From: an uncultured Gemmatimonadota bacterium
GTDB lineage: Bacteria; GCA-2686955; CAYMWF01
DNA length: 64,000 bases
Direction of reading: 5' to 3'
Assembly: GCA_964394085.1 (NCBI GenBank)
Contig: CAYMWF010000011.1
Coordinates: 27,926-91,925, forward strand
This document shows, one piece after another, positions 557-27,806 of this stretch. Positions within the stretch are counted from its first letter, which is position 1. The number at the start of each line of letters is the position of its first letter. The notes below the pieces were generated by a model. The model made no database searches. It was not told where the DNA came from and worked only from the letters and a program-made list of their open reading frames with translations. Made by a program: the position numbers and the translations under genes.

Positions 557-655
557 AACGGGCCAGCTCCATCTTCCCCCGGGATTGGTCCTGAAATAAG
601 CGGAAAAGGGAAAAGATTCGCGAAGTCCTCAGGGGTGGAGAGAGGAGAGAAAGAG

Positions 656-699
656 GGTCGAGAAAGGAGCGAAAGAGGGTCGAGAAAGGAGCGAAAGAG
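656..699. repeat. Two perfect tandem copies of the 22-bp purine-rich unit GGGTCGAGAAAGGAGCGAAAGA, preceded by a partial degenerate copy
   Basis: Direct inspection of 640-700. Confidence 0.8.
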
Positions 700-935
700 G
701 ATGGCGGAGGAGTTGGATTATCAGGATTCCGGGAAGAAATCTTGATAAAAGTTTACTCAAAAAATGGAAACCGGGCCGGGCGGGGTTTGGGAAAGCCGCA
801 GGGAGCGGTTTTTGATTTTTATTGACTTTTTGCGGGGTGCTGGACAAGATACTTGGTTTTGATAATGGTCCGCCAACCGATGTATTAGGCCTGTTTCTGA
901 AGCCTGCTCAATCGTTTACAGACAGGGAGCCCGCC

Positions 936-7442: not shown

Positions 7443-8009
7443 CGTGAGCCTGCAACCCCCGCGGGACAAGACGTGCTGCCGGTATCCCGCTCTGATGCGC
7501 TGGTGATTACCTGCATCCGCCGCAGGACAGGATATGATTCTTGCGCTGCGCTGCAGAAAGAGAAGTACACGGATCGACTCCGTGGTTTGGAATCTCGAAG
7601 CCAGCCGGGGCGTACACCTGATTCTTTTCCAGGCATAGCTTAACTATACCATCGACTCAGCCGGTGAATTTTGTTTCATTGCGCCCGGGGAGCAATGAAC
7701 CCAGCAGTTTTACACCGGTTGCTTTACGAATAAAGTCCCGTATCGCAGATTCGGGGCTTCGGCCCCGGGGTGCGCGGGTCGAGATTATTCGACCCGCGCC
7801 CTTATTCCTTTACTAACACGGTTCAAGCTGTAAAAATGAAAGCTCGATGCTGCAGCGGTTCCGGCTCCGTATCCCTCTTCAGCATTTTACAGCGATCATG
7901 CCCGCCGGGAAATTCGAGCCGGGCGGTTGCTCGGGGTTGTTTTTTAACTGCGAAAATGACGCAGGCCGCGGCCGGAAAGACAGCAGAAGTTGATTTCACG
8001 GGGAAAAGA

Positions 8010-8933
8010 ATGAAGTATATATTCGGACCGGTTTCTTCACGCAGGCTGGGGCGCTCTCTCGGTGTGGACCTGGTTCCGCACAAGACATGCCCTTATGACT
8101 GCATATACTGCCAGGTGGGGAGAACTACCAACAAAACACTTCAGCGGGAGGAATTCGTCCCTCTCGACGATGTCGTATCCGAGCTCGAGGAATCCCTCAA
8201 GCAGATCGAGAATCCGCCCGATTTTATCACGTTGAGCGGGTCGGGGGAGCCTACCCTGTACTCGAGAACCGGCGAGCTGATCGAGCGGATCAAAGATTCG
8301 ACCGACATTCCGGTCGCGGTGATCACCGGCGGTTCGACCCTGCACTTTCCCGAAGTCCGAAAATCTTTAATGAACGCCGACCTCGTCGTGCCCTCTCTCG
8401 ACGCCGGAGACCAGGAGATGTTCGAGAAGGTGAACCGCCCCAGCGACGGACTTACTTTCGATACGATGCTCGAAGGACTTATCCGCTTTCGCAGGGAATT
8501 CCGCGGTCCGATCTGGCTGGAAGTGTTCATTCTCGAAGGGATTTCGACGGAGCTGACGGAAGCGGGCAAACTCGCCGCCGCCGCCGACCGGGTCAAGCCG
8601 GACCGGATCCAGCTCAACACCGTGGTCCGTCCCGCCGCCGAAGTATACGCCTCGGAAGTACCCAGGGAGAAGCTGGCGGAAATCGCCGGGATATTCATCC
8701 CCGATGCGGAGATAATCGCAGGCTACAAAAGGACGCCGGAGCTTTCCGACGAACGGGCGAACAGGGAGACGATCCTGGAGATGCTCAAGCGGCGTCCCTG
8801 CACACTGGAGGATATCGCCTCCGGCCTCGAGCTCGACCCGAACCTGGTGGCGAAGCATCTCAACGAGCTGGCTGAAAGCGGGTTCGTAACGCTGACCATC
8901 AAGGGCAAGCACCTTTTCTATTGCGCTGAGTGA
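8010..8933 (+). CDS. Radical SAM protein (COG0731-like Fe-S oxidoreductase) with C-terminal winged-helix-like tail
   Basis: CX3CX2C motif CPYDCIYC right after the FGPVSSRRLGRSLGVDL signature. Start ATG 8010 chosen; the ORF-track start 7770 would translate a structured leader. Confidence 0.7.
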   Translation: MKYIFGPVSSRRLGRSLGVDLVPHKTCPYDCIYCQVGRTTNKTLQREEFVPLDDVVSELEESLKQIENPPDFITLSGSGEPTLYSRTGELIERIKDSTDIPVAVITGGSTLHFPEVRKSLMNADLVVPSLDAGDQEMFEKVNRPSDGLTFDTMLEGLIRFRREFRGPIWLEVFILEGISTELTEAGKLAAAADRVKPDRIQLNTVVRPAAEVYASEVPREKLAEIAGIFIPDAEIIAGYKRTPELSDERANRETILEMLKRRPCTLEDIASGLELDPNLVAKHLNELAESGFVTLTIKGKHLFYCAE

Positions 8934-10424: not shown

Positions 10425-11390
10425 TCAGTGAGAAGCCAGGATCTCACCTATGTGGTGATATCCCGTGTGGTTCTGCGACCAGTAGTCGCGAACCGGCTCA
10501 CCGGGCCGGAGAATGAAAGATTCGCAGTAGTTGCAGTCTTCCGACTGTATCCTGACCAGAAGATCGCCGCCGGAGAAAGCCCAGTTCCGCCCGTCCGGGT
10601 ATATGTGCTGGATGAGCATCCCCTGCCGTGTCTTTATGTGGAACCAGTCGCCAGGGTCGTCCCACGAATTATCGGTGATGAAATGCAGGACCTGCCAGAT
10701 GTTGCCTGAGGGAAGTCGCCCCTGGCTGACGGCGATGCCCGAGTCGTTGGGCAATCCGAAGACGAGGCAGTGCCCGAACCTGCGCGCGGCGTCGTGCAGC
10801 ACGCCCTCCCTGCCGTGCTCGAAGTGGGAAGTCGCGATGATATTGCGGCACATCCCGTATCCCTGGACCGGAGACACGCCCTGGCCGAGGGAGCTGCACA
10901 TGTATTCGCACAGTTGATCCACCCCCGCTGAAAATCCCACGGTCAGCAGGCCGCGTTCCAGCCGCTCGTGCAGAAGCCGCCCGAAGAGGCTCCCGTCTCC
11001 ATGGTGGATAGCGCCGAGCTCGTTATAGCGGCGGAACCCGGTGTAGGGGTTGCCTCCGCCCAGGATCACCACCTCGGCCGTCTGAAGCGTATGAATCAGC
11101 CTGTCAACATCCTCTCGACGCAGATTGCTGTTCCAGAAGAACGGGAAAGCGTTCAGCCCGTAGTGATGGAAAAAGTTGAAGTACCACTCGAAATTCCGCC
11201 AGCTGAATTCCTGCCTTCGGTATTCATCCCAGCCGTCCTCTCCCTCCGACATCGGAAGGAACAGGATCTCTCGGTTACCCGAGAGCGCCCTCTGGACGAT
11301 CCAGTCGTTATGAATGTAGTTGCATCGCGAATGGGAACTGTATACCAGCGTAGTAGGGTTCACGGCACAATACCTTCTGAAAGAGACCAA
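10425..11390 (-). CDS. Peptidase S51 (dipeptidase E / cyanophycinase-like, class-I glutamine-amidotransferase fold) with C-terminal extension
   Basis: ILFLPMSEG N-terminal strand, VVILGGGNPY, nucleophile elbow GFSAG, later His. Confidence 0.55.
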   Translation of the reverse strand: MVSFRRYCAVNPTTLVYSSHSRCNYIHNDWIVQRALSGNREILFLPMSEGEDGWDEYRRQEFSWRNFEWYFNFFHHYGLNAFPFFWNSNLRREDVDRLIHTLQTAEVVILGGGNPYTGFRRYNELGAIHHGDGSLFGRLLHERLERGLLTVGFSAGVDQLCEYMCSSLGQGVSPVQGYGMCRNIIATSHFEHGREGVLHDAARRFGHCLVFGLPNDSGIAVSQGRLPSGNIWQVLHFITDNSWDDPGDWFHIKTRQGMLIQHIYPDGRNWAFSGGDLLVRIQSEDCNYCESFILRPGEPVRDYWSQNHTGYHHIGEILASH

Positions 11391-11401
11391 GTCTGTTCGC
11401 C

Positions 11402-11600
11402 GATAAGCTGCGAACGCGAAGCAGTCGCCGGCTTGATTCGACTCTCTTCACCGATAAGCAGCGAACGCGAAGCGGTCGCCGGCTTGATTCGACTCTCTTC
11501 ACCGATAAGCTGCGAACGCGAAGCGGTCGCCGGCTTGATTCGGCTCTATTCGCGGATAAGCTGCGAACGCGAAGCGATCGCCAGCTTCATCCGCGACTAA
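11402..11600. repeat. Tandem direct repeat, 51-bp unit (CCGATAAGCTGCGAACGCGAAGCGGTCGCCGGCTTGATTCGACTCTCTTCA) x ~3.9, decaying toward 11600
   Basis: Units at 11402-11452, 11453-11503, 11504-11554 and a partial one at 11555-11600 with a few substitutions. No spacers, so not CRISPR. Confidence 0.85.
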
Positions 11601-11777
11601 TTATATTACATCGAAACATAAAAATTCAAGCCGGGCTTGTTATGGGGAGCAGCGAGTTTCAGCGCTTCCCGTAACGAGGGGCAGCCGGGTGCGGGAACCA
11701 GCACCCAAGCCGGATGATGAGCGTCCTCCGCCGGGCGGAAAGACGTCCCGCACCGCCTCCTCTCGCATACTCCGGAC

Positions 11778-11864
11778 AAAAGGAGCGCCGACCCTTGACT
11801 CGAAACAAAAGGGGCTCCCGCCCTTGACTCGAAACAAAAGGGGCTCCCGCCCTTGACTCGAAAC
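11778..11864. repeat. Three tandem 29-bp units (AAAAGGGGCTCCCGCCCTTGACTCGAAAC), each carrying a TTGACT -35-like box, about 55 bp upstream of the esterase gene
   Basis: Units at 11778-11806 (variant), 11807-11835, 11836-11864. Confidence 0.8.
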
Positions 11865-11919
11865 GGCTCCGGATTTACACTGCCCCCGCATTGCGGAATA
11901 CACCGGAGTAATTTGAAAC

Positions 11920-13203
11920 GTGAGAAAAATATTCGAAAGGCTCAGGGCGGAAGGCGCCGACTACTTCGAGAAGATCGCGGGTTCCGAAAAGACGCCGATC
12001 GTCAGAGACAGGGAGCTGCTCTTCCTGTACCACGAGCGGGAACGTCTCGTGAACCAGGTCAAGCTCAACCACAATATCTCCAGCCTTGATAACCCCGTAT
12101 ACTTCGAAAAGTTCGGAAGCGGGGGACCGTTCGCCCTCCACATGGTTCTTCCATCGAAAGCGCGGATGGAATACTCGCTGGAGGTGGATTACGAAACCGG
12201 TGAAACGGAATACCGGAACGACCCCGGTAATCCCGTGCAATCATTCTGCCCCTTCGGCTCGAAAAGCGTCGCGTGCACCGAAAGCTATAAAACGCCGGCC
12301 TGGGCGATCCGTCGAAACGGTGTTCCCCGGGGGAAGCTGGAAGAACATGTCCTGGAGAGCGAAGCCCTGGGCGGACCGAGGGAAATCCGGATACACATAC
12401 CCGCCGTTCCGGCGCCTGCGAAGGGTTATCCCGTTCTGATAATCCATGACGGAACCGATTTCATCAATTACGGCGATATGCTCACTGTGCTCGACAATCT
12501 CGTGTACCAGGGCGAGATGGAACCTTTCCTGGCGGTGTTGACGAAACCCGAAAACCGTAATCTCGAGTATACATGCATGCCTGAACACACGTTTCACCTC
12601 GCCGAGGAGCTGCTGCCGTGGGTGCGCGACCGCTATCCCGCAACATCCAAAAGAGAGAAAACAGGCCTCATGGGCTCGTCGCTGGGGGCTATATCGTCGC
12701 TCCATACCGCGTATACTTACCCCAGTCTGTTCAAGCCGCTCCTGATCCAGTCGGGATCGCTGCGGTTTCATGAAACGAAAGGAACGGCACCCGCCTTCGA
12801 GCCGGTGGATGAATTCGACCGGATCATGCTTTTTCTCGAAGGAAAGTTTTTTCCCCGCGGGTTTCCACGGAAGATGCGGATATTCCAGTCGTGCGGAACC
12901 TTCGAGCCGCTTCTGTCGTTCAACAGGCGTTTTTACGAAGAGCTGAAGAAACTCCATCAGGATGTGGTATACAGTGAAAACCATGACGGTCATAACTGGA
13001 TTTCCTGGCGTGACCAGCTCGGCGCGGGTTTTTCATTCCTGTTTCCACCGGATGGCCGGTCCGCCGCCCGGCCGGTCATCAAACGTATTCTCGGCTCCCT
13101 GGGCTCCCGGCAGTCGACCGAGGACGAGGGGATGAAACTCCAGGCCGGCCGGGACCACAGGCGGAAAACCGGGCGGACGAAAAATGTGGAGGAATCGTTA
13201 TGA
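11920..13203 (+). CDS. Esterase of the enterochelin-esterase/esterase-D family (alpha/beta hydrolase, PF00756-like) with N-terminal Fes-like domain
   Basis: PVLIIHDGTDF.., nucleophile elbow GSSLG, downstream HDGHNW; 427 aa. Confidence 0.65.
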   Translation: MRKIFERLRAEGADYFEKIAGSEKTPIVRDRELLFLYHERERLVNQVKLNHNISSLDNPVYFEKFGSGGPFALHMVLPSKARMEYSLEVDYETGETEYRNDPGNPVQSFCPFGSKSVACTESYKTPAWAIRRNGVPRGKLEEHVLESEALGGPREIRIHIPAVPAPAKGYPVLIIHDGTDFINYGDMLTVLDNLVYQGEMEPFLAVLTKPENRNLEYTCMPEHTFHLAEELLPWVRDRYPATSKREKTGLMGSSLGAISSLHTAYTYPSLFKPLLIQSGSLRFHETKGTAPAFEPVDEFDRIMLFLEGKFFPRGFPRKMRIFQSCGTFEPLLSFNRRFYEELKKLHQDVVYSENHDGHNWISWRDQLGAGFSFLFPPDGRSAARPVIKRILGSLGSRQSTEDEGMKLQAGRDHRRKTGRTKNVEESL

Positions 13204-14633
13204 GCAGTCCGATTATCAAGAACATCGCACTGATGGCTTCTCACGACTGGACCCTCCGCGCGGCTATGGCGGAATTTCTCGCTTTTATCGATCCCGTCAT
13301 CCGCTGGCAGGGGAAGGAATACAAGATCGAGCTGACGAGAGCGATCGCGAAACCGCTCCTCGCGGGCACGGATCCGACCGGCGGGGCCGACCTGATCCTC
13401 GACCGAACCACCCACTGGAACGGATATTACAAGTCATGGGCGCACCAGGCGATGAACTCCCTCGCGAGGATGGTCAATCATACGTATACATTCGCCGTCT
13501 ACGACAAACATTCGACTTACGACCTGATGGCCCGGGCCATCCATCCCGGGGACCGGTTTCCGAGAACGGTGCTGCTGCCCCAGTTCCAGCCGTGGTCGGG
13601 AGACCAGAAGAAACAGGCGCTCTGGGAATACGAACAGAGGCTGATTATCGACAACACGGAGTTAGGCTTCGATAAAACGAGGAAAAAGACCGACTGGGAG
13701 GTGGTCCGGCAGAAGCTCGGCGAGATGAAGAGGTTCGAACGTCGATCCGAGCAGGTCAGGGAAGATTTCTACTACAGCGGCGAATACCTGAAGGAAGTGG
13801 TCGAAGAAACCTTCGAAAACAGCTTCCCCCTCTACCTGAAAAAGGCTTACGGCGGCGGCGGCTCCCAGGTCTACAAGATCAACAGCCTGGACGAGCTCTA
13901 CGATAAATACGACGGCACGGGGGACCAGACGTTCCATCTCCAGGAGGGGATAGAACCTTACGAAATCTTCTATCGCGCCATGGGCATAGGGCCGGTGGTG
14001 ATCCCGATGAAGTTCCAGCCCGACCATCCGCATCATCAGCATTACGGACCCGAAAAACTCGTCCTGGACAAAGACATCTTCCACCGCCTGCAGAGCTACG
14101 TGCTCTTCATCAACTCATACCACCGCTGGACATACAATTCCTTCGAATGCCTGCTGAAAGACGGAAGCCTGCACCCGATCGATTTCGCAAATGCATGCCC
14201 CGACAGCCAGTTGATCTCGCTCCACGTGCATTTCCCGACCGTAGTCTGCGCCCTGATGAAATGGCTCTCGTTCTGCGTGGTGACTGAAAAGGACATGAAG
14301 ATTAACCTCGACATGAGCGACTACCTATCGGTCCTCAACGAACCGGATGTTTCACAGCAGGAGAAATTCGACTTCTGTCGCAGGAAGTCGCATGAATATT
14401 TCGAAACCGACAAATTCAACGATTTCTGCGGAGAAAACTTTTCGGACCTGGAAGAACGGATGATCGATTTCTACGACTATAAATTCGATGAGATCATCAG
14501 GTTCGCGGTGGAGTTCAGCGACTTTCCCGAGGAAGAGCACGGCAGATTCTACGATCACTACAAGGGTTATATGGAAGGGATCTGGCGTCCCAACGCCAGG
14601 CAATTCCTGGAGCCCGTGATACTCGCCGATTAG
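13200..14633 (+). CDS. ATP-grasp-fold protein (possibly GSP-synthetase-like / circularly permuted ATP-grasp)
   Basis: Gly-rich ATP-grasp loop LYLKKAYGGGGSQVYKI. ATGA start/stop overlap with the esterase gene (translational coupling). Confidence 0.45.
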   Translation: MSSPIIKNIALMASHDWTLRAAMAEFLAFIDPVIRWQGKEYKIELTRAIAKPLLAGTDPTGGADLILDRTTHWNGYYKSWAHQAMNSLARMVNHTYTFAVYDKHSTYDLMARAIHPGDRFPRTVLLPQFQPWSGDQKKQALWEYEQRLIIDNTELGFDKTRKKTDWEVVRQKLGEMKRFERRSEQVREDFYYSGEYLKEVVEETFENSFPLYLKKAYGGGGSQVYKINSLDELYDKYDGTGDQTFHLQEGIEPYEIFYRAMGIGPVVIPMKFQPDHPHHQHYGPEKLVLDKDIFHRLQSYVLFINSYHRWTYNSFECLLKDGSLHPIDFANACPDSQLISLHVHFPTVVCALMKWLSFCVVTEKDMKINLDMSDYLSVLNEPDVSQQEKFDFCRRKSHEYFETDKFNDFCGENFSDLEERMIDFYDYKFDEIIRFAVEFSDFPEEEHGRFYDHYKGYMEGIWRPNARQFLEPVILAD

Positions 14634-14669: not shown

Positions 14670-16505
14670 TCAGGACAGGGAGGGGCGATCGAGTTCCGGC
14701 TGCTTCCTCCTGAAAAAGCAGAAAATACAGGCGAGAAGCGAAACAACCGAGACAGCCGCTCCGATTAGAACCGATGCAGGCAGGTAGTAGAAGATGATCC
14801 TTGATTTCCCGGGGGACACTTCGGTTGAAATAAGCCCTTCGTAACTTTCAACCTCACCCTGCCCGATTCCCTCGACTTTCCATCCCGAAAAATAATTCTG
14901 GTTGAGGCATAACCTGTCTTCCCGGGCGGTATCGATTTCAACCTCGATCCTGTTCGGCGAAAAGAACGCTATTTCAGCCGTGCCGTCGCCGGATACGAGA
15001 TAAGCTTCGCCGCGGTATCCGGGATCGGTAAAGGCTCTGGCGGCGATCCGATCTTCACATCCGACGAAAAACTGGTCGAAACTCGCGAGATTCCCGGCGT
15101 TCCTGTAAAAGGGAAGAATAGCATCGCGTTCGACGCTTTCCTGGCGGAACGGCGCTTCGATCATTTCTGATTTCGGGTCGTTCTGCAGGGCCCTCCACAA
15201 CCCCGACCTGCTGACCGTCATTATATCGATTGCCGAATAAGTCAGCGGCAGAACAAGCAGGATGTATCCGATCGCTTTCGCGGGCCCGGAACCGAGGTTT
15301 TTAATAATATCCTGACATTTTGAAACCAGGAACCCGCTGCTGAGAGCCGCCGCGAAAAGAACCAGGTGGAAATACCGGACGGGATCCTTGATGCTCTTCA
15401 GAAGAGGGAGACCGTGTAGCAGGGCGAAGAGATTCAGGGGTTTGAAGGGCCACGATTCGGGGGTCGACAGCGCCGGGGTCGAACCGAAGGCGAGGATCAG
15501 AAGAAATAATCCGATGACGAGGAATTTCCAGAGCCGGCGGAAACAGACCACGGCACCGGTAAAAGCGAGCAGAATCGGAATCCAGCCGGTATAAAGGCAG
15601 AAATACTGCCAGTCGCCTACGTGCACGAGACAATCCCTGTCGAGCAGACACTGAAACAGCTTGGATACCGAATCGTAATATCGGTTGATATCGAGAGGCA
15701 CCTCCCTCGAAAAGCCGGCTACATACATGAATTCGTACATGGGGAGAAGCTTTATGGCGGCGACCGCGCCGCTGATCCCTCCCAAAACGAGAAAAAGGAC
15801 GACCGGTTTGACCTTTTTTGTGGAGATGGCTGTGAGGAGGCTGTATGGAGCCAGGAACATGAAGCAGTGGAGTGCGGTGTACAGTCCGTCAGAAGTGATT
15901 AAAAAAGCCAGCAGGAGACCCGCGGGAACGATATGCCGCCGGCTGTCCAAGGATCGGAAGAAGAAGTAGAAGACCCAGGGAATCCAGTACATCTGAATGA
16001 AGTTGTAGGAACCGAATATGAAACAGTAAGGGATGAAGTTCGAAAGAAAATAAACGAGCGGAGGGTAGATGGAGCCGAGAGTGCTCAGACCCATCCGCCG
16101 GGCGAGCAGGTAGAAACCCCACATCCCGATGATGCACAGCGATACCGCTTCCACTGTCGGGGCCCTTGTTTCTCCGAAGATTAATGTTAATAGAAATGTC
16201 GGATGCAGAAAGGACGAGAGGGGGTGACCCAGAGCCGGAAGCCCTCCCTTCGCGTAAGGATTCCACAGTGGGAACTGGTGAAAATGCAGGATAGTCTTCC
16301 GCTGAACGGCGTCTATCAGGGCCCAGAAATCCCAGTCGAACCCGCCCCAGTTGTTGAATTGCCTGATGCATGGCCAGTAGAGCGTCAATGCCGCCGCGGA
16401 AAAGAGGGCCGGCGGCATCATCCTCGAAAACAAATTTCGGAAATATGATGGATCGGACAGGCTGTTGGGTTGGTTTCTTTTCATTGAATAATCTGAACGC
16501 ATCAC
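14670..16505 (-). CDS. Large polytopic membrane protein (about 12 TM plus periplasmic domain plus C-terminal TM), possible GT-C/YfhO-like glycosyltransferase
   Basis: Hydrophobicity pattern only; no motif identified with certainty. Confidence 0.35.
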   Translation of the reverse strand: MMRSDYSMKRNQPNSLSDPSYFRNLFSRMMPPALFSAAALTLYWPCIRQFNNWGGFDWDFWALIDAVQRKTILHFHQFPLWNPYAKGGLPALGHPLSSFLHPTFLLTLIFGETRAPTVEAVSLCIIGMWGFYLLARRMGLSTLGSIYPPLVYFLSNFIPYCFIFGSYNFIQMYWIPWVFYFFFRSLDSRRHIVPAGLLLAFLITSDGLYTALHCFMFLAPYSLLTAISTKKVKPVVLFLVLGGISGAVAAIKLLPMYEFMYVAGFSREVPLDINRYYDSVSKLFQCLLDRDCLVHVGDWQYFCLYTGWIPILLAFTGAVVCFRRLWKFLVIGLFLLILAFGSTPALSTPESWPFKPLNLFALLHGLPLLKSIKDPVRYFHLVLFAAALSSGFLVSKCQDIIKNLGSGPAKAIGYILLVLPLTYSAIDIMTVSRSGLWRALQNDPKSEMIEAPFRQESVERDAILPFYRNAGNLASFDQFFVGCEDRIAARAFTDPGYRGEAYLVSGDGTAEIAFFSPNRIEVEIDTAREDRLCLNQNYFSGWKVEGIGQGEVESYEGLISTEVSPGKSRIIFYYLPASVLIGAAVSVVSLLACIFCFFRRKQPELDRPSLS

Positions 16506-16873
16506 CGTCTGAAACTGCTGATGCAGCTTAACAAGTCGCCCCTGCCCGAGTCAATAAATGCAAGAAAAATGTTGCTCATGCCTGACTTTTGAACCCTGAT
16601 TGCATCATTTCGTGAGCCCTTCTGAAAAGACGATTACCGCACTTCAACTGTGTCACCGACTATACGGCTTCACGAAGTATCCCACCTGCCGCAGCCAGAG
16701 ATATCGGAATCATGGTTGACATATCGACACGGATCTGATATACTGGACAACAGTAACGCTCCGACTTAAACAAAGGAAAAACACTGAAAAATGACTGAGT
16801 TCGTTTCAAGTGCTCATCATATCTCTACCGTGCAGTGAATTTTCGGTCGGATATGGTATAAGGGAGGTTCGTC

Positions 16874-18361
16874 ATGAAACATCTTTGCCTCGCATGTTCA
16901 TTTCTACTTGTGCTCGGACTCGTGAGTCTGGTTTCAGCGCAGCCGGATACGTTATGGACCTCGATCTGGGAATCGGCTCTGGATGAGAAGTTCATGAGCG
17001 TCGATGAAGCCGCCGACGGCGGTTTCATATGCTGCGGCGACCAGCGTATCGGGGATTCGGACGCGTATGTCGTGAAACTGGACGCGGATGGGAATTACGA
17101 GTGGTCCAAGTATTTCTCGGGCGAATCCGACAAGCGCGCAAATGATATCAAACAGGTCTCGGACGGCAACTACATCCTCACCGGGTACGAGAAGTCGCTC
17201 AATAATGAAACGGACCTCCTGCTCATGAAGCTCCATTCCAGCGGTAATGTGCTCTGGGAAAAAACCTACGGTTTCCCCACTACCGATGAGTCAGGCAACG
17301 CCATCGAGGAAACGTCGGACGGCGGTTTCATAATCACCGGAAAAGGCTCTTCCGGGACATCGAGCAGGATGTCGATCATCAAGACGGACGACGCGGGCAA
17401 CGTGGAGTTCCAGGCACTTTTCACCAGCGGAGCCGAAGCCCAGGGCAAGGATATCATCGAGGTGGAGGATGGATATGTCGCGGTCGGATGGACCAGGTCA
17501 GGAAGCGGTGATAACGATGTATACCTGCTGAAATGCGACTACTTCCTGAACGAGGTGTGGGCAAGGTTGTTCGGCGGTGATGACGGCGACGAAGGGTCAG
17601 GTCTCGCCAGAACTATCGACGGCGGCTTCGTGGTCGTTGGAAGTCAGTATGTCACAGGCCCTTACAGCTACCAGATGTACATCGTCAAGACAAATGATGC
17701 GGGTATCGAAGAGTGGAACCTTCTCCATGGCGGGATCGGTTCAGACGGTCTGCACAGCGTAGATATGACGATGGATGGTGACATTATTACGACCGGGTTT
17801 ACGTACGAGAGCGGAAAATCCGACATCAAGCTGATGCGTATCTCGAGTTCCGGCTCCATCGACTGGGAAGTCGACTACGGCGGCGCCGAATATGAGTCCG
17901 GATACTGTATCACTACGTTACTCGATGGAGGGTATGCTCTCGCCGGCAATACGAACTCCTTCGGATATGGCGGCTACGATGCATGGCTCCTCAGGTTTGA
18001 ATCGGAAATGGGACTCCCCGTGGTGTTGTTCATGAACCCTTACCAGTCATTGGCGCCGATGGGATGCACCCTCGATTTCGGCATCACGTACTCGAACCTG
18101 TCTCAGACCACACAGCACGCAATAGTGAACCTCGAAGCTTACCTTCCCGGTGAGACGGAACCCGCCTGGCAGGTGTACAACCCGGCCTTCGAGTTCCCGC
18201 CCGGTGACATGACCAAGCAGTATACACTTGCCATTCCCTATACAATACCAATAGCACCGGGCTACCTCTTCGTTTCTCAGATTCTTGATCTTGATCTCGA
18301 GGTGGTTTCAGAGGATACCTTCGAGTTCGAAGTCCTCGAAGCGATGACAACGGTTCCTTAG
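16874..18361 (+). CDS. Secreted beta-propeller repeat protein (SBBP-like repeats)
   Basis: Signal peptide MKHLCLACSFLLVLGLVSLVSA. About 7 repeats of ..DGGF(I/V)..G.. ending in (T/S)xS. AAGGGAGG SD upstream. Confidence 0.6.
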   Translation: MKHLCLACSFLLVLGLVSLVSAQPDTLWTSIWESALDEKFMSVDEAADGGFICCGDQRIGDSDAYVVKLDADGNYEWSKYFSGESDKRANDIKQVSDGNYILTGYEKSLNNETDLLLMKLHSSGNVLWEKTYGFPTTDESGNAIEETSDGGFIITGKGSSGTSSRMSIIKTDDAGNVEFQALFTSGAEAQGKDIIEVEDGYVAVGWTRSGSGDNDVYLLKCDYFLNEVWARLFGGDDGDEGSGLARTIDGGFVVVGSQYVTGPYSYQMYIVKTNDAGIEEWNLLHGGIGSDGLHSVDMTMDGDIITTGFTYESGKSDIKLMRISSSGSIDWEVDYGGAEYESGYCITTLLDGGYALAGNTNSFGYGGYDAWLLRFESEMGLPVVLFMNPYQSLAPMGCTLDFGITYSNLSQTTQHAIVNLEAYLPGETEPAWQVYNPAFEFPPGDMTKQYTLAIPYTIPIAPGYLFVSQILDLDLEVVSEDTFEFEVLEAMTTVP

Positions 18362-18414
18362 TAATAGTTGGGAATACGTTGCATGGACCGGGGTCGGCTT
18401 GCCGGCACCGGTCT

Positions 18415-20739
18415 CTATTTTTTCTTTTGGCGAAGGGATTGGGCGGCGGCGGCGGGGGCGAATCCGGGATGCCGTGAGAGGCATTCCTCGAGGGTGCGGG
18501 TCGCTTCGTCATGCCTGCCCAGTGCATTTTGGAGGAGCGCTAGATTATAATATCCTTCGGGTGAGTCGAGGGCCACGGCCCGGTTGTAACTTTTGAGGGC
18601 CTGGTTGATCCGTCCCGCACGGGACTGGAGATTCCCCAGGTTTACCCAGGCGTCTCCCAGCCCGGGATCGAGTTCGACGGCGCGGAGCAGGGCCGTCTCC
18701 GCACCCGCCGCGTCATTTTGCTGCGCGAGCAGCATCCCGATATCGACGTAATTTTCCGCCCGGGCGGGCCGAAGGTCCCGGGCGGTCTCGAACTGCCGGA
18801 GAGCCTCGTCCACCCGGCCGGCGTCACGCAGAAGAGCGCCCAGATCCCGGCGAAGCCCCGCCTCATCCTGCTCGTATTCGATCGGGTTCGAAGCGATTTC
18901 GATACCGTCCTCAAGCACCCGGACAGCGTCTCCCCTCCTCCCCTGGCGCACGAGCGAGAGAGCCAGGTTTCTGAAGGCGCGGATGTAGTTGCCCCTTGTC
19001 TCGAGCGCCTTCCTGAAATAAACCTCGGCCCGGACGGGATTCTTCTTTTCGAGAAATATCACGCCAAGATTGTTCAGGGCCATTTCATCGCCGGGATTGT
19101 TTTCAAGCTCCGCTTGGTACTCGGCGGCCGCAGCATCAAAAAGGGAATCGCGGACCGCCGGCTCCGCAGCGGCGCTCGCCTTTTCGAAAGCGATCACGCC
19201 CAGGTTCAGGTGAGCCCGCGGGTATCGGGGATTGAGTTCGAGCGTCCTGCGGAAACCAACGATTGCGCGTTCCGTTTCACCCGACCGGAGCCATGTGACA
19301 GCGTCACCGAACTCGACCTGTCCTCCCCTGTCGTTCCCCCGTAGACCGAACGGGTCGGCGGATGAAAGCGTGAATACCAGGATTGCCGCTCCCCAGAGCG
19401 GAATCGAAGTCCGCCAATCCCTGCGGCTGGTATTTTCTGCCAGGGCCGTCACGCCTTTCCCCGCGAAAGGCATCATCATCGCGATCACCGGAACCCGGTA
19501 GCGGGCGGCGACGAAGAACATAATCACCGTCAACGAATATACACCGGCGAACAGAACCACCGGATAGCCCGGCCTGAGCCCACCCTCCCTTGCTGCGGCG
19601 ATAAATCCCGAGACGGCAAGGGCCAGCACCATCGCAAAACTCAACGGGAGGAACCTCTGCAGCATCGACCTGCCCAGCCAGTCAGGGATATTCCGGTTGC
19701 TGCTGATTTCATGGTTTCCGAAGAACAGGATGGTTTTTTTCGTGAACAGCCGGGCGGCATCCACAGGCTGCTCAATCCAGAATCTCAACCCTTCGCCGAA
19801 AAGGAAACTGGAAACCTGTCCCGGCAGCAGTTTATGGCCGGTAACGGATTCAGCGTAGGATGCGCAATCATAATACTCGAAATTTCCGCCCGTCTGCGGA
19901 AACCCGGCGGGCACTCCGAACATCCCGTCCGAGTCTGGATTATTACCGGTGTAGAAGGCGAGCCCGCCCTGGGTGGATATGAGGTTGAACTCGCCCCCGA
20001 CCGCGTAATTCCTCGCCGTGACCGGTAGGATGACGATCACCGCCGCCACGGGAAGAAGGAGCGCCTGGAGCCGATGCCGTGAAGCCGCTCCTCCCGTTCC
20101 CGCCAGGAGCAACAGGGCCAGGATGGGAACCGCCGGAAGCACGGTGGGCCTGGCCAGGGCCGACAGACCGAAAATCAAACCGGAGGCGATAGGAAGAACG
20201 GCATCCCTTCTGGTTCGAAGGGCGGGAAGCTTCTCCCACCAGGATAAAAGAAGTAGCATCCCGGCTAGATCCAGGAGAAGGATCAGGGAAGTAATCAGGA
20301 GCTCCCCGTCGAAATAGATGAACATCCCGTAGACGGCGGCCATCAATCCCGCGAGCAATCCCGCCCTTCTTCCGAAAAGAAACGCTCCGATACAGCCGAT
20401 CAGGACTGCGCTGACCGAACCCATAACCGCCTGAATTATCCTGGGGGCCAGGAACCCAGGACCGAAGAACTTGAAAAACAGCCCGAGCAGGAAAGGATAT
20501 AACGGCGCTTTGAAAAAGACTCCCCTGAACAGGACGCCGGACTCAGCATACCGGACCGCCTGGTTGTAATACATCAGGGGATCGTTCTCCAGGCAGGAAA
20601 AACCCGGCAATGCGGCGATTTCGGAGATGTATAACAGCCGCAATGTCAACGCGATCAAGAAAAGCAGGATAACTTGTCGACCGGTAAGATTTCGATTTCC
20701 GGCGGAAATCGCCATGCGGTCAGTCCGATTCTTCTTCAA
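18415..20739 (-). CDS. GT-C glycosyltransferase (family 39 / PMT_2, ArnT-like) fused to C-terminal TPR repeats
   Basis: N-terminal multi-TM domain of ArnT/PMT type. C-terminal half has repeated TPR motifs (..AIAFEKASAAAEP.., ..YRKALETRGNY.., ..YNRAVALDSPEGYYNLAL..). Confidence 0.6.
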   Translation of the reverse strand: MKKNRTDRMAISAGNRNLTGRQVILLFLIALTLRLLYISEIAALPGFSCLENDPLMYYNQAVRYAESGVLFRGVFFKAPLYPFLLGLFFKFFGPGFLAPRIIQAVMGSVSAVLIGCIGAFLFGRRAGLLAGLMAAVYGMFIYFDGELLITSLILLLDLAGMLLLLSWWEKLPALRTRRDAVLPIASGLIFGLSALARPTVLPAVPILALLLLAGTGGAASRHRLQALLLPVAAVIVILPVTARNYAVGGEFNLISTQGGLAFYTGNNPDSDGMFGVPAGFPQTGGNFEYYDCASYAESVTGHKLLPGQVSSFLFGEGLRFWIEQPVDAARLFTKKTILFFGNHEISSNRNIPDWLGRSMLQRFLPLSFAMVLALAVSGFIAAAREGGLRPGYPVVLFAGVYSLTVIMFFVAARYRVPVIAMMMPFAGKGVTALAENTSRRDWRTSIPLWGAAILVFTLSSADPFGLRGNDRGGQVEFGDAVTWLRSGETERAIVGFRRTLELNPRYPRAHLNLGVIAFEKASAAAEPAVRDSLFDAAAAEYQAELENNPGDEMALNNLGVIFLEKKNPVRAEVYFRKALETRGNYIRAFRNLALSLVRQGRRGDAVRVLEDGIEIASNPIEYEQDEAGLRRDLGALLRDAGRVDEALRQFETARDLRPARAENYVDIGMLLAQQNDAAGAETALLRAVELDPGLGDAWVNLGNLQSRAGRINQALKSYNRAVALDSPEGYYNLALLQNALGRHDEATRTLEECLSRHPGFAPAAAAQSLRQKKK

Positions 20740-27153: not shown

Positions 27154-27278
27154 CACCGCCGCGCCGCCGGACGCGCCGAATCGGCGAAACGCCGTCCGGG
27201 TTGGAGTTTATCTTAGGCGGGATGAATATCCGGACGCGGCCGAATCGGCGAGGTATCGTCCGGGCTGGAGTTTATCTT

Positions 27279-27806
27279 ATGCGGGATGAACGTCTGAAAA
27301 TACTGGAAGGGGACGCCCCGGTTTCCCCCGACGCGAAAAGGCACCCGCTGGCGGTTGTGCTCGATTCGGTCCGTTCAGCGTACAATGTCGGAGCCATGAT
27401 CCGCACCGCCGAGTGCGCCGGAGTCGAGCGTATGTATATCTGCGGAATCAGCGCGACTCCGCCTAACCGGCGACTTACGAAAACCGCCCTCGGAGCTGCT
27501 TCCTCCCTTCCCTGGGAGTACCGCGAAAGCGCCTTCGATACCGTGCTGGAACTGAAGAGAAACGGGTACAGGATTATCAGCCTGGAAACCACCAACCGCA
27601 ACGTCAGCCTGTGGGAAACCTCTTTCACGCCCCCTTGCGCCCTCGTGTTCGGTCACGAGGTTACCGGCGTCGGCATGGACATCCTTGAAATCTCGGATGA
27701 AATCGTGAAGATACCGGTTTTCGGGCGGAAGAATTCCCTGAACGTCGCCACCGCCTTCGGAATCACCTTGTACGAAGCTCTCCGGAAAGTCACTAACGTG
27801 ACTTGA
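27279..27806 (+). CDS. SpoU/TrmH-family RNA 2'-O-methyltransferase
   Basis: ..AVVLDSVRSAYNVGAMIRTAE..(motif 1), ..LVFGHEVTGV.., ..IPVFGRKNSLNVATAFGITLYEA (SPOUT knot). Start ATG 27279 chosen; longer ORF from 27120 spans a duplicated leader. Confidence 0.7.
   Translation: MRDERLKILEGDAPVSPDAKRHPLAVVLDSVRSAYNVGAMIRTAECAGVERMYICGISATPPNRRLTKTALGAASSLPWEYRESAFDTVLELKRNGYRIISLETTNRNVSLWETSFTPPCALVFGHEVTGVGMDILEISDEIVKIPVFGRKNSLNVATAFGITLYEALRKVTNVT

What the first reader, a model, noticed from the sequence alone, without database searches (positions are those of the whole stretch)
11391..11919. Two different tandem-repeat arrays in a divergent promoter region
The spacer separates the S51 peptidase gene from the esterase/ATP-grasp operon. 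It holds a 51-bp unit repeated ~3.9x (11402-11600) with a mutational gradient. It also holds three 29-bp units (11778-11864), each carrying a TTGACT -35-like hexamer, ending 55 bp before the esterase start. This looks like a triplicated promoter or a triplicated transcription-factor site, which could give copy-number-dependent, phase-variable expression. The 51-bp array is not a CRISPR because it has no spacers. It translates in one frame to a 17-aa repeat (PISCEREAVAGLIRLSS), but that frame is antisense to the peptidase gene and is probably not coding.
Basis: seen in the sequence. Interest (0 to 1): 0.55.

Follow-up and report, generated by a model that had tools for sequence, protein, structure and literature searches.

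The report
Two tandem repeats between divergent genes
Both repeat blocks are real, recent local duplications in the DNA between two oppositely oriented genes of an uncultured bacterium; one block differs by one unit between near-identical assemblies, and this kind of variable repeat in a promoter or leader region is already known in other bacteria.

Summary
Both arrays exist as described: 51 bp x4 (11392-11595) and 29 bp x3 (11776-11864), each far beyond chance.

They lie in the 556-bp spacer between a conserved S51-like gene (minus strand, start GTG 11363) and an esterase / ATP-grasp-fold operon (plus strand, start 11920). More distant relatives keep the same divergent gene pair, with a 223-240-bp spacer and no repeats. 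The arrays are therefore lineage-specific expansions.

29-bp array:
- Only the last copy pairs its TTGACT with a -10 (TTGACT-17-TACACT).
- DNA homology with the 80%-identical sister species begins exactly at that -35.
- Copy number is 3 in all 7 contigs that span the array.

51-bp array:
- It lies between the best S51 promoter candidate (TTGAAT-18-TATAAT, 11629-11600) and the start codon. It would therefore be transcribed as leader.
- The promoter-proximal copy forms a strong 45-nt hairpin; the other copies fold weakly.
- It has 4 copies in two assemblies and 3 copies in four others, which otherwise differ by at most 2 SNPs in 5-21 kb.

Best reading: slippage-generated minisatellites (variable-number tandem repeats, VNTRs), like the Mycobacterium tuberculosis promoter tandem repeats. 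At most they tune expression. I found no on/off phase-variation mechanism.

Interest is low to moderate.

The parts
10425..11363 (-). S51-like (PepE/cyanophycinase-like) gene, 312 aa, start GTG at 11363
   Evidence: Pfam PF03575 match is weak (25.4 bits). PDB sequence hits to aspartyl dipeptidase / peptidase E, E about 2e-4. The 312-aa homologues in L038 and L041 share the same N-terminus at 68% and 63% identity. The gene was also called as 312 aa in L001.
11373..11378 (-). Shine-Dalgarno-like AGAAGG, 9 nt before the S51-like GTG
   Evidence: Read from the sequence.
11392..11595 (.). 51-bp tandem array, four units: 11392-11442, 11443-11493, 11494-11544 and 11545-11595
11443..11493 (.). Copy 2, the unit absent from the 3-copy allele; it carries a private SNP (AAGCAGCG)
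   Evidence: Alignment A1 and the unit listing. The end of contig L031 also carries this SNP.
11551..11595 (-). Strong 45-nt hairpin formed by copy 4, predicted to sit at the very 5' end of the S51-like mRNA
   Evidence: On the mRNA strand: -29.9 kcal/mol, z -4.15. On the + strand: -29.3 kcal/mol, z -5.47. Copies 1-3: -14 to -20 kcal/mol, z +0.02 to -2.03.
11600..11629 (-). Best candidate promoter of the S51-like gene, TTGAAT-18-TATAAT (10 of 12), in the only AT-rich patch of the spacer
   Evidence: consensus match only, not verified.
11776..11864 (+). 29-bp tandem array, three units: 11776-11804, 11805-11833 and 11834-11862. Each carries an A-tract, AAGGG-N7-CCCTT (AAGGA in unit 1) and TTGACT.
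11853..11881 (+). Core promoter of the esterase operon, TTGACT-17-TACACT; its -35 lies in the last repeat unit
   Evidence: Conserved in the sister species L023/L025 as TTGACT-17-TATACT. BLAST homology starts at 11852. Equivalent promoters occur in L004, L005, L040 and L041.
11920..13203 (+). Esterase gene (PF00756, enterochelin-esterase-like), 427 aa
13200..14633 (+). 477-aa gene overlapping the esterase stop codon; ATP-grasp fold
   Evidence: No sequence-family hit. AlphaFold2 model pLDDT 89.5. Foldseek matches to LysX/ArgX, Ddl and RimK, E about 2e-8, TM-score normalised to the target up to 0.72.

Best explanation
Both arrays are young, locus-specific minisatellites (variable-number tandem repeats, VNTRs). 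They arose by replication slippage or unequal recombination inside the spacer of a conserved divergent gene pair, and roughly doubled that spacer.

29-bp array. The duplicated segment contains the -35 hexamer of the esterase/ATP-grasp operon promoter. Only the copy nearest the gene works as a promoter, because only it has a -10. The two upstream copies are orphan -35/A-tract elements near -64 and -93. At most they modulate RNA polymerase or regulator recruitment.

51-bp array. The duplicated segment is a hairpin-containing piece of the S51-like gene's leader. The promoter-proximal copy keeps a strong stem-loop at the predicted 5' end of the mRNA. That stem-loop is either a 5'-terminal stabiliser or a palindromic operator over the start site. 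The other copies are weakly folding by-products that lengthen the leader by 51 nt each. One unit is gained or lost much faster than point mutations accumulate (3 versus 4 copies in a nearly clonal population). The expected effect is graded or neutral, not an on/off switch.

Shown: the repeats, their positions, conservation of the esterase promoter, the difference in copy number between assemblies, and the absence of repeats in relatives.
Inferred: the S51 promoter and transcription start, transcription of the array, any role of the hairpin, and any effect on expression.
For: - The repeats are real and far beyond chance.
- Relatives with the same S51-like/esterase divergent pair have 240-bp (L038/L039) and 223-bp (L041/L042) spacers without tandem repeats. 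This species has 505 or 556 bp.
- 29-bp units 2 and 3 are 100% identical, so the duplication is recent.
- The esterase promoter equals the last copy and is conserved.
- The 51-bp array has 4 copies in the window and L034, and 3 copies in L001, L028, L032 and L033. Copy 2 is cleanly absent from the 3-copy contigs.
- Outside the array, three of the 3-copy contigs (L001, L032, L033) differ from the window by only 1-2 SNPs in 5-21 kb; L028 shows none over 3.9 kb.
- Copy 2 has a private SNP that is also seen in L031, so the fourth copy cannot be an assembly artefact.
- The three 3-copy contigs that cover SNP positions each carry SNPs. The 4-copy contig L034 is identical to the window over 13.9 kb.
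- The same kind of one-unit difference occurs in the sister species: a 61-bp unit, 2.5 copies in L023 versus 1.5 in L025.
- Two further intergenic tandem duplications lie in this window. This points to a general mutational process.
- The copy 4 hairpin is strong and the other copies are weak.
- Predicted accessibility of the ribosome-binding site is 0.59-0.64 for 1 to 4 copies.
- Published analogues exist: 54-58-bp promoter tandem repeats with copy-number variation in M. tuberculosis (PMC12817950).
Against: - The 3-versus-4 difference rests on short-read metagenome assemblies. A de Bruijn assembler working at k below about 39 could skip copy 2, because the 3-copy junction differs from the 4-copy sequence only over a 37-nt span. 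No reads could be inspected.
- The S51 promoter is only a consensus match and has no comparative support.
- The organism's closest named relatives are Calditrichota at about 60% PurC identity. Use of sigma-70-type promoters is therefore assumed, although it fits the conserved TTGACT-17-TAnAnT upstream of esterase homologues.
- Whole-leader folding is not more stable than shuffles (z -1.0).
- Neutrality cannot be told apart from weak modulation with these data.
Confidence: 0.6

Rival explanations
1. The 29-bp units are a functional array of regulator-binding sites. A dimeric transcription factor binds the palindrome AAGGG-N7-CCCTT, which overlaps each -35, at about -42, -71 and -100. Triplication then gives cooperative or copy-number-dependent control of the esterase/ATP-grasp operon.
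For: Units 2 and 3 carry an exact 5-N7-5 inverted repeat abutting TTGACT; unit 1 matches 4 of 5. The proximal site is centred about 42 bp upstream of the predicted start, a classical class II activator position (established knowledge). Copy number is 3 in all seven contigs that span the array. The sister species L023 and the relative L005 have extra TTGACTCG or TTGACCC motifs upstream of their esterase promoters.
Against: The palindrome is absent from the conserved promoter of the sister species. Similarity of the unit to the upstream region of L023 is not significant (75 of 500 and 36 of 500 shuffles score as well). AAGGG-N7-CCCTT and TTGACTCG are not enriched in the window. The 29-bp spacing is 2.8 helical turns, so the sites are out of phase. 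The invariance comes from an almost clonal population. Relatives L004, L040 and L041 have a single copy.
Confidence: 0.12
2. The 51-nt units act at RNA level as a copy-number-tunable structured leader. Tandem hairpins serve as RNase or RNA-binding-protein targets and set S51-like mRNA stability or translation, analogous to the repeat-containing hmw1A 5'-UTR of Haemophilus influenzae.
For: The array lies between the best promoter candidate and the ribosome-binding site. Every unit can form a hairpin with a 3-nt loop. Copy number varies. There is precedent for a transcribed repeat tract acting through a 5'-UTR hairpin and RNase III (PMC12721329).
Against: Copies 1-3 do not fold better than shuffles (z +0.02 to -2.03), and neither does the whole leader (z -1.0). 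Predicted accessibility of the ribosome-binding site is independent of copy number. There is no Rfam match; the best is E 0.62. No homologous element appears in the scans of JGI metagenome or viral contigs. Relatives' leaders show no significant structure.
Confidence: 0.12
3. The apparent length polymorphism is an assembly artefact. All populations carry 4 copies, and the arrays are fixed, selectively neutral duplications with no variability at all.
For: All the evidence is from short-read assemblies. Logan contigs break exactly at both arrays. Contig L046 ends just after another repeat. Tandem repeats longer than a read are typically collapsed (noted also in PMC12817950).
Against: The 3-copy junction is a sequence that does not exist in the 4-copy allele. 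It was produced identically by four assemblies from two projects. Two consecutively numbered JGI samples gave 4 copies (3300013118) and 3 copies (3300013119). The 3-copy contigs carry SNPs and the 4-copy contig does not.
Confidence: 0.15
4. The 51-bp array encodes a repeat protein, either the 210-aa + strand ORF 10968-11600 or an N-terminal extension of the S51-like protein.
For: The unit length is 17 codons. One + strand frame is open through the array.
Against: That ORF is antisense to a well-conserved gene for 400 bp and has no credible family hit. In the S51 frame, stop codons fall inside the array (two of the four units). The S51-like N-terminus is fixed at 312 aa in homologues. The two other minus-strand frames are interrupted or overlap the S51 start.
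Confidence: 0.01

Closest known systems
Promoter tandem repeats (VNTR loci) of Mycobacterium tuberculosis: dop 57 bp, lpdA 58 bp, cysG 54-56 bp (Modlin et al. 2025, PMC12817950)
   Same: Units of tens of base pairs, 2-4 or more head-to-tail copies, immediately upstream of a gene and including promoter sequence. Gain or loss of whole units occurs between otherwise near-identical genomes. Such repeats are easily mis-assembled from short reads.
   Different: Here there is no expression, transcription-start or read-level evidence. The promoter-containing array (29 bp) is invariant in the sample available. The variable array (51 bp) lies downstream of the predicted promoter, in the leader. The organism is an uncultured, non-pathogenic lineage.
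hmw1A/hmw2A heptanucleotide repeat in the 5'-UTR of Haemophilus influenzae (PMC12721329)
   Same: A repeat tract between promoter and start codon that is transcribed as leader, with RNA hairpin potential. Copy number varies between cells or strains and gives graded rather than on/off output.
   Different: 7-nt units in 10 or more copies, against 51-nt units in 3-4 copies. The RNase III role and inverse dose-response are demonstrated there. Nothing is demonstrated here, and predicted accessibility of the ribosome-binding site does not change with copy number.
Classical simple-sequence-repeat contingency loci (phase variation by changing -35/-10 spacing or the reading frame)
   Same: Repeats in a promoter region that can change length by slippage.
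   Different: Units are 29 and 51 bp, not 1-9 bp. The copies lie outside the -35/-10 spacer and outside coding sequence. A change in copy number therefore cannot switch the promoter or the reading frame off.
Dispersed intergenic repeat families (MIRU, REP/BIME, BOX)
   Same: 40-100-bp units, often with hairpin potential, found in intergenic regions and sometimes in tandem.
   Different: No second locus of either unit in 64 kb. Only chance single matches in the collection scans. Whole-genome dispersal could not be tested.
5'-terminal stem-loop mRNA stabilisers such as the ompA leader hairpin (established knowledge, not looked up here)
   Same: A strong hairpin predicted within a few nucleotides of the transcript's 5' end (copy 4).
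   Different: The transcription start and any stabilising effect are unverified. A tandemly amplified version of such a hairpin was not something I looked for in the literature.

Membership tests
Bacterial VNTR / promoter tandem repeat | Head-to-tail copies of a unit of 10 bp or more, without spacers | tested here: met
   Tandem Repeats Finder: 51 bp x3.8 and 29 bp x3.1; units listed in register.
Bacterial VNTR / promoter tandem repeat | Located in an intergenic promoter or leader region, with the unit containing promoter sequence | tested here: met
   The 29-bp unit contains the conserved -35. The 51-bp array lies between the predicted S51 promoter and the start codon. The promoters are predictions.
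Bacterial VNTR / promoter tandem repeat | Copy number differs between closely related genomes | tested here: inconclusive
   51-bp array: 4 copies in 2 assemblies and 3 copies in 4 assemblies. No reads were available, so collapse at small k is not excluded. 29-bp array: 3 copies in all 7 contigs.
Bacterial VNTR / promoter tandem repeat | Copy number alters expression of the adjacent gene | not testable with these tools
   Needs reporter fusions or transcriptomics. In silico accessibility of the ribosome-binding site is unchanged.
Simple-sequence-repeat phase-variation (contingency) locus | Short unit (1-9 bp) in many copies | tested here: not met
   Units are 29 and 51 bp, in 3-4 copies.
Simple-sequence-repeat phase-variation (contingency) locus | A length change alters the -35/-10 spacing or the reading frame, giving on/off switching | tested here: not met
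   The 29-bp copies lie upstream of the -35 of the working promoter, and the 17-nt spacer lies outside the repeat. The 51-bp array is non-coding in the S51 frame.
CRISPR array | Repeats separated by unique spacers of similar length | tested here: not met
   Units abut each other at 51- and 29-bp spacing.
Dispersed intergenic repeat family (MIRU / REP-like) | The same unit at several loci of the genome | tested here: inconclusive
   Only one locus in the 64-kb window. JGI metagenome and viral scans gave chance singletons. The rest of the genome was not available.
Known structured RNA family (riboswitch, leader, sRNA) | Match to an Rfam covariance model | tested here: not met
   No match at gathering score. 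The best permissive hit is 14.9 bits against a cut-off of 70, E 0.62.
Plasmid or phage iterons | Roughly 17-22-bp direct repeats beside a replication initiator gene or origin | tested here: not met
   The flanking genes are S51-like, esterase and ATP-grasp-fold. Unit sizes are 29 and 51 bp.

The most novel reading that the evidence does not exclude
The promoter-proximal 45-nt hairpin of the S51-like leader is a functional RNA or operator element. Its tandem amplification in 51-nt modules creates a heritable, rapidly mutable 'rheostat' for S51-like expression. In parallel, the triplicated -35/palindrome module sets the dose of the divergent esterase/ATP-grasp operon. Together they would make a two-sided, repeat-number-tuned control region for one functional gene module in a free-living uncultured bacterium, outside the pathogen context where such tuning is known.
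Probability: 0.1. Interest if true: 0.5.

Novelty: new member of a known kind. Interest (0 to 1): 0.25.

Why it matters
If the 3-versus-4 copy difference is real, minisatellite gain and loss in promoter and leader DNA outpaces point mutation. The phenomenon was recently highlighted in M. tuberculosis, where short reads hide it. Here it would operate in an environmental, uncultured lineage. It would also be a practical marker for telling apart otherwise clonal populations in metagenomes. Nothing here opens a long-standing question, and no regulatory effect is shown.

Tried and rejected
- Dispersed repeat family. Scans for the 51-bp core gave 11 single hits in JGI metagenome contigs and 1 in viral contigs. 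The metagenome hits match only the fixed bases and have unrelated neighbours. The 29-bp unit gave none in viral contigs. That metagenome collection evidently lacks the JGI samples that do carry the locus, so this negative result is weak.
- Known RNA family. Rfam found nothing.
- Duplication older than the split from the sister species. L023 has three TTGAC motifs and a CTCCCACCCCTTGAC stretch that resembles the unit. The local alignment score is matched by 7-15% of shuffles, so I dropped this.
- Extended -35 or regulator motif. TTGACTCG and AAGGG-N7-CCCTT are not enriched in the window. The one other TTGACTCG is simply the -35 of a neighbouring promoter-like site.
- Conserved hairpin in the S51-like leader of relatives. 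Hairpins exist in L038 and L041, but the leaders do not fold better than shuffles.
- Copy-number-dependent occlusion of the ribosome-binding site. Not predicted.
- Coding repeat. Rejected.
- GTDB genomes. The nearest esterase is only 49% identical, and the upstream gene in L004 is not S51-like, so these were of little use for the spacer.
- Polymorphism of another array in the window. The 64-bp x2 array has the same length in two other assemblies.

Full report
**1.

Tandem Repeats Finder reports two arrays:
- a 51-bp array at 11392-11587 (3.8 copies, 92% matches, score 322);
- a 29-bp array at 11776-11864 (3.1 copies, 93% matches, score 150).

In register the 51-bp array is four units, 11392-11595. 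They match the consensus at 48, 50, 50 and 42 of 51 positions. The flanking 51-mers match at 14 and 18, so they are unrelated. The 29-bp units match at 25, 29 and 29 of 29. Core patterns of both units occur only here in the 64-kb window, against 0 expected in shuffles. Each 29-bp unit carries TTGACT. The + strand frame does read PISCEREAVAGLIRLSS. Both arrays recur in independent public assemblies.

**2. Setting**

- The minus-strand gene 10425-11363 is a 312-aa S51-like protein. Its Pfam PF03575 match is weak, and it has PDB sequence hits to PepE. Its GTG start at 11363 is fixed by 312-aa homologues with the same N-terminus, at 68% and 63% identity.
- The plus-strand operon starts at GTG 11920 with a PF00756 esterase.
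- The operon continues with a 477-aa protein that overlaps the esterase stop codon. This protein has no sequence-family hit. It is 53-70% identical to proteins in many phyla. Its AlphaFold2 model (pLDDT 89.5) matches the ATP-grasp ligases LysX/ArgX, Ddl and RimK.
- The organism is uncultured. The best named PurC relatives are Calditrichota, at about 60% identity.

**3. Comparative anatomy of the spacer**

- The S51-like/esterase divergent pair is conserved in more distant relatives, where the esterase is 48-52% identical. Their spacers are 240 bp (L038/L039) and 223 bp (L041/L042), with no tandem repeats. The spacer here is 556 bp, or 505 bp in the 3-copy allele. The arrays are therefore lineage-specific insertions of sequence by duplication.
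- The nearest other species has an esterase 80% identical (L023-L026) and a different upstream context. Its DNA homology to the window begins exactly at 11852, the -35 of the last 29-bp copy.
- The alignment there shows CTTGACT, a partly conserved 17-nt spacer, and TATACT against TACACT.
- Similar TTGACT/A-17-TAnAnT promoters precede the esterase gene in L004, L005, L040 and L041.

So the last 29-bp copy supplies the real -35 (11853-11858) for the -10 at 11876-11881. The two upstream copies have no -10 partner, as the sequence shows directly.

**4. The 51-bp array lies in the predicted leader of the S51-like gene**

- The only good minus-strand promoter match is TTGAAT-18-TATAAT at 11629-11600, 10 of 12, in the single AT-rich patch of the spacer.
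- Only about 28 bp separate the array from the start codon. Any S51 promoter must therefore be upstream of the array or inside it. The scan flags none inside it on that strand.
- A start near 11593 would put the copy 4 hairpin (11551-11595) at the very 5' end of the transcript.
- That hairpin is strong: -29.9 kcal/mol, z -4.15 on the mRNA strand, and -29.3 kcal/mol, z -5.47 on the other strand. Copies 1-3 give -14 to -20 kcal/mol, with z between +0.02 and -2.03.
- Six of the nine positions at which copy 4 differs from the consensus sit in its extended stem and are paired there. This was read.
- This fits one selected hairpin plus relaxed duplicates. It fits equally well with neutral decay of the duplicates.
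- The whole leader is not more stable than shuffles.
- The predicted unpaired probability of the AGAAGG Shine-Dalgarno is 0.59-0.64 for 1 to 4 copies.
- In the S51 frame, stop codons fall inside the array, in two of the four units.
- Rfam gives nothing.

**5. Copy number across assemblies**

All contigs found through the flanking proteins belong to one nearly clonal population. Outside the array, the window differs by 1 SNP from L001 (5.4 kb), 1 SNP from L032 (21 kb), 2 adjacent SNPs from L033 (15 kb), and 0 from L028 (3.9 kb) and L034 (13.9 kb).

| Array | Copies | Where |
|---|---|---|
| 51 bp | 4 | the window; L034 (JGI 3300013118) |
| 51 bp | 3 | L001 (ENA SAMN10231913); L028 (JGI 3300007510); L032 (JGI 3300013119); L033 (JGI 3300009008) |
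| 29 bp | 3 | all seven contigs that span it |

- L034 comes from a different assembly than the window. Its contig ends at window position 15795, and the rest of the locus is on another contig.
- In the 3-copy contigs exactly copy 2 is missing.
- Copy 2 carries a private SNP (AAGCAGCG). It is also present at the end of contig L031 from SAMN10231914. The fourth copy is therefore real.
- The 3-copy junction joins copy 1's A32 to copy 3's T18, 37 nt apart. That sequence is absent from the 4-copy allele, so only an assembler effectively working at k below about 39 could invent it.
- Four assemblies from two projects agree on 3 copies. Each of the three that cover SNP positions carries SNPs, and the 4-copy contig does not.
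- I judge the polymorphism probable, roughly 75-85%, but unproven without reads.
- Logan contigs break at both arrays, as expected for k=31.

**6. A general propensity in this lineage**

- The window holds two further intergenic tandem duplications: 22 bp x3.1 at 633-700 and 64 bp x2 at 27167-27290. The second has the same length in two other assemblies.
- In the sister species a perfect 61-bp unit is present 2.5 times in L023 and 1.5 times in L025. Those two contigs are otherwise almost identical.
- This favours a mutational (slippage or unequal exchange) origin over a locus-specific design.

**7. Mechanism and rivals**

The best-supported account is two young minisatellites. One copies the -35 region of a conserved promoter. 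The other copies a hairpin-bearing leader segment. Their effect is graded or nil.

| Rival | Main points | My probability |
|---|---|---|
| Regulator-site array | The palindrome AAGGG-N7-CCCTT abuts each -35. It is absent from the conserved promoter of the sister species, not enriched in the window, and spaced out of helical phase. | 0.12 |
| RNA-level rheostat | Has a good precedent in hmw1A (PMC12721329) but no structural or comparative support here. | 0.12 |
| Polymorphism is an assembly artefact | Cannot be excluded without reads. | 0.15 |
| Coding repeat | Antisense to a conserved gene; the S51 frame is closed. | 0.01 |

**8. Comparison with known systems**

- The closest match is the promoter tandem repeats of M. 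tuberculosis: 54-58-bp units upstream of dop, lpdA and cysG, variable between and within strains, and obscured by short reads (PMC12817950).
- The finding differs from simple-sequence contingency loci in unit size. It also lacks any way to switch the promoter or the reading frame off.
- It is not a CRISPR, an iteron set or a known RNA family.
- It is a new member of a known kind. The case is a tidy example in an environmental lineage, with a modest twist: two unrelated arrays serve the two sides of one divergent module. I rate its interest at 0.25.

Noticed in passing
window 13200-14633 (+): The 477-aa protein has no Pfam, NCBIfam or PDB sequence match. It is nevertheless 53-70% identical to 'hypothetical proteins' across several phyla, including Sericytochromatia, Blackallbacteria, Schekmanbacteria, Ca. 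Uabimicrobium and Deltaproteobacteria. Its AlphaFold2 model (pLDDT 89.5) has an ATP-grasp fold (LysX/ArgX, Ddl, RimK) plus a helical C-terminal region of about 140 residues. This is a highly conserved family that matches no Pfam or NCBIfam model.
   Followed up: partly
window 10425-14633; L038, L039, L041, L042; proteins P0018, P0038: The S51-like gene, the esterase and the ATP-grasp-fold gene form a conserved module: a divergent pair plus an operon. P0018 (737 aa) carries precomputed Pfam hits to both esterase and Peptidase_S51, so that architecture exists as one polypeptide; P0038 (738 aa) lists only esterase. Similarity of the window's S51-like protein to the S51 part of P0018 is weak (E 0.001). 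The function may be synthesis and breakdown of a peptide or amino-acid conjugate; this was not tested.
   Followed up: partly
L023:1316-1465 versus L025: In the sister species a perfect 61-bp unit is present 2.5 times in one assembly and 1.5 times in another. Those contigs are otherwise near-identical, with 2 mismatches. The difference changes the length of the called upstream ORF from 322 to 377 aa.
   Followed up: yes
window 633-700 and 27167-27290: Two more intergenic tandem duplications: 22 bp x3.1 upstream of the 889-aa Fer4_20/Pyr_redox_2 gene, and 64 bp x2 just upstream of the SpoU methylase gene. The 64-bp pair has the same length in L044 and L045. Contig L046 ends right after it.
   Followed up: partly
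window 14670-18440: A segment of about 3.7 kb is absent from the sister species, where synteny resumes directly with the PMT_2/TPR gene. The segment holds two ORFs without Pfam hits: a 583-611-aa minus-strand gene and a 483-495-aa plus-strand gene.
   Followed up: no
window 11545-11592 (-): A substitution specific to copy 4 creates an AUG. It opens a 14-codon mini-ORF (MKLAIASRSQLIRE*) a few nucleotides from the predicted 5' end of the S51-like leader, inside the strong hairpin. There is no Shine-Dalgarno sequence, and the other copies read AUC at that position.
   Followed up: no
window 11627-11639 (-): A small GC hairpin (CAAGCCCGGCTTG) followed by AATTTTT on the minus strand overlaps the -35 of the predicted S51 promoter. 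It looks like a terminator, but no upstream minus-strand gene is there to be terminated.
   Followed up: no
window 7770-8933 (+): A radical SAM domain is fused to a C-terminal ArsR-type helix-turn-helix domain, two genes upstream of the S51-like gene. This is an unusual enzyme-regulator fusion. It is conserved in the other assemblies.
   Followed up: no
L005 about 190 bp and L023 about 170 bp upstream of their esterase genes: An exact extra TTGACTCG lies well upstream of the working esterase promoter in two relatives. It could be a second promoter, a regulator site or chance. The statistical test against the 29-bp unit was not significant.
   Followed up: partly
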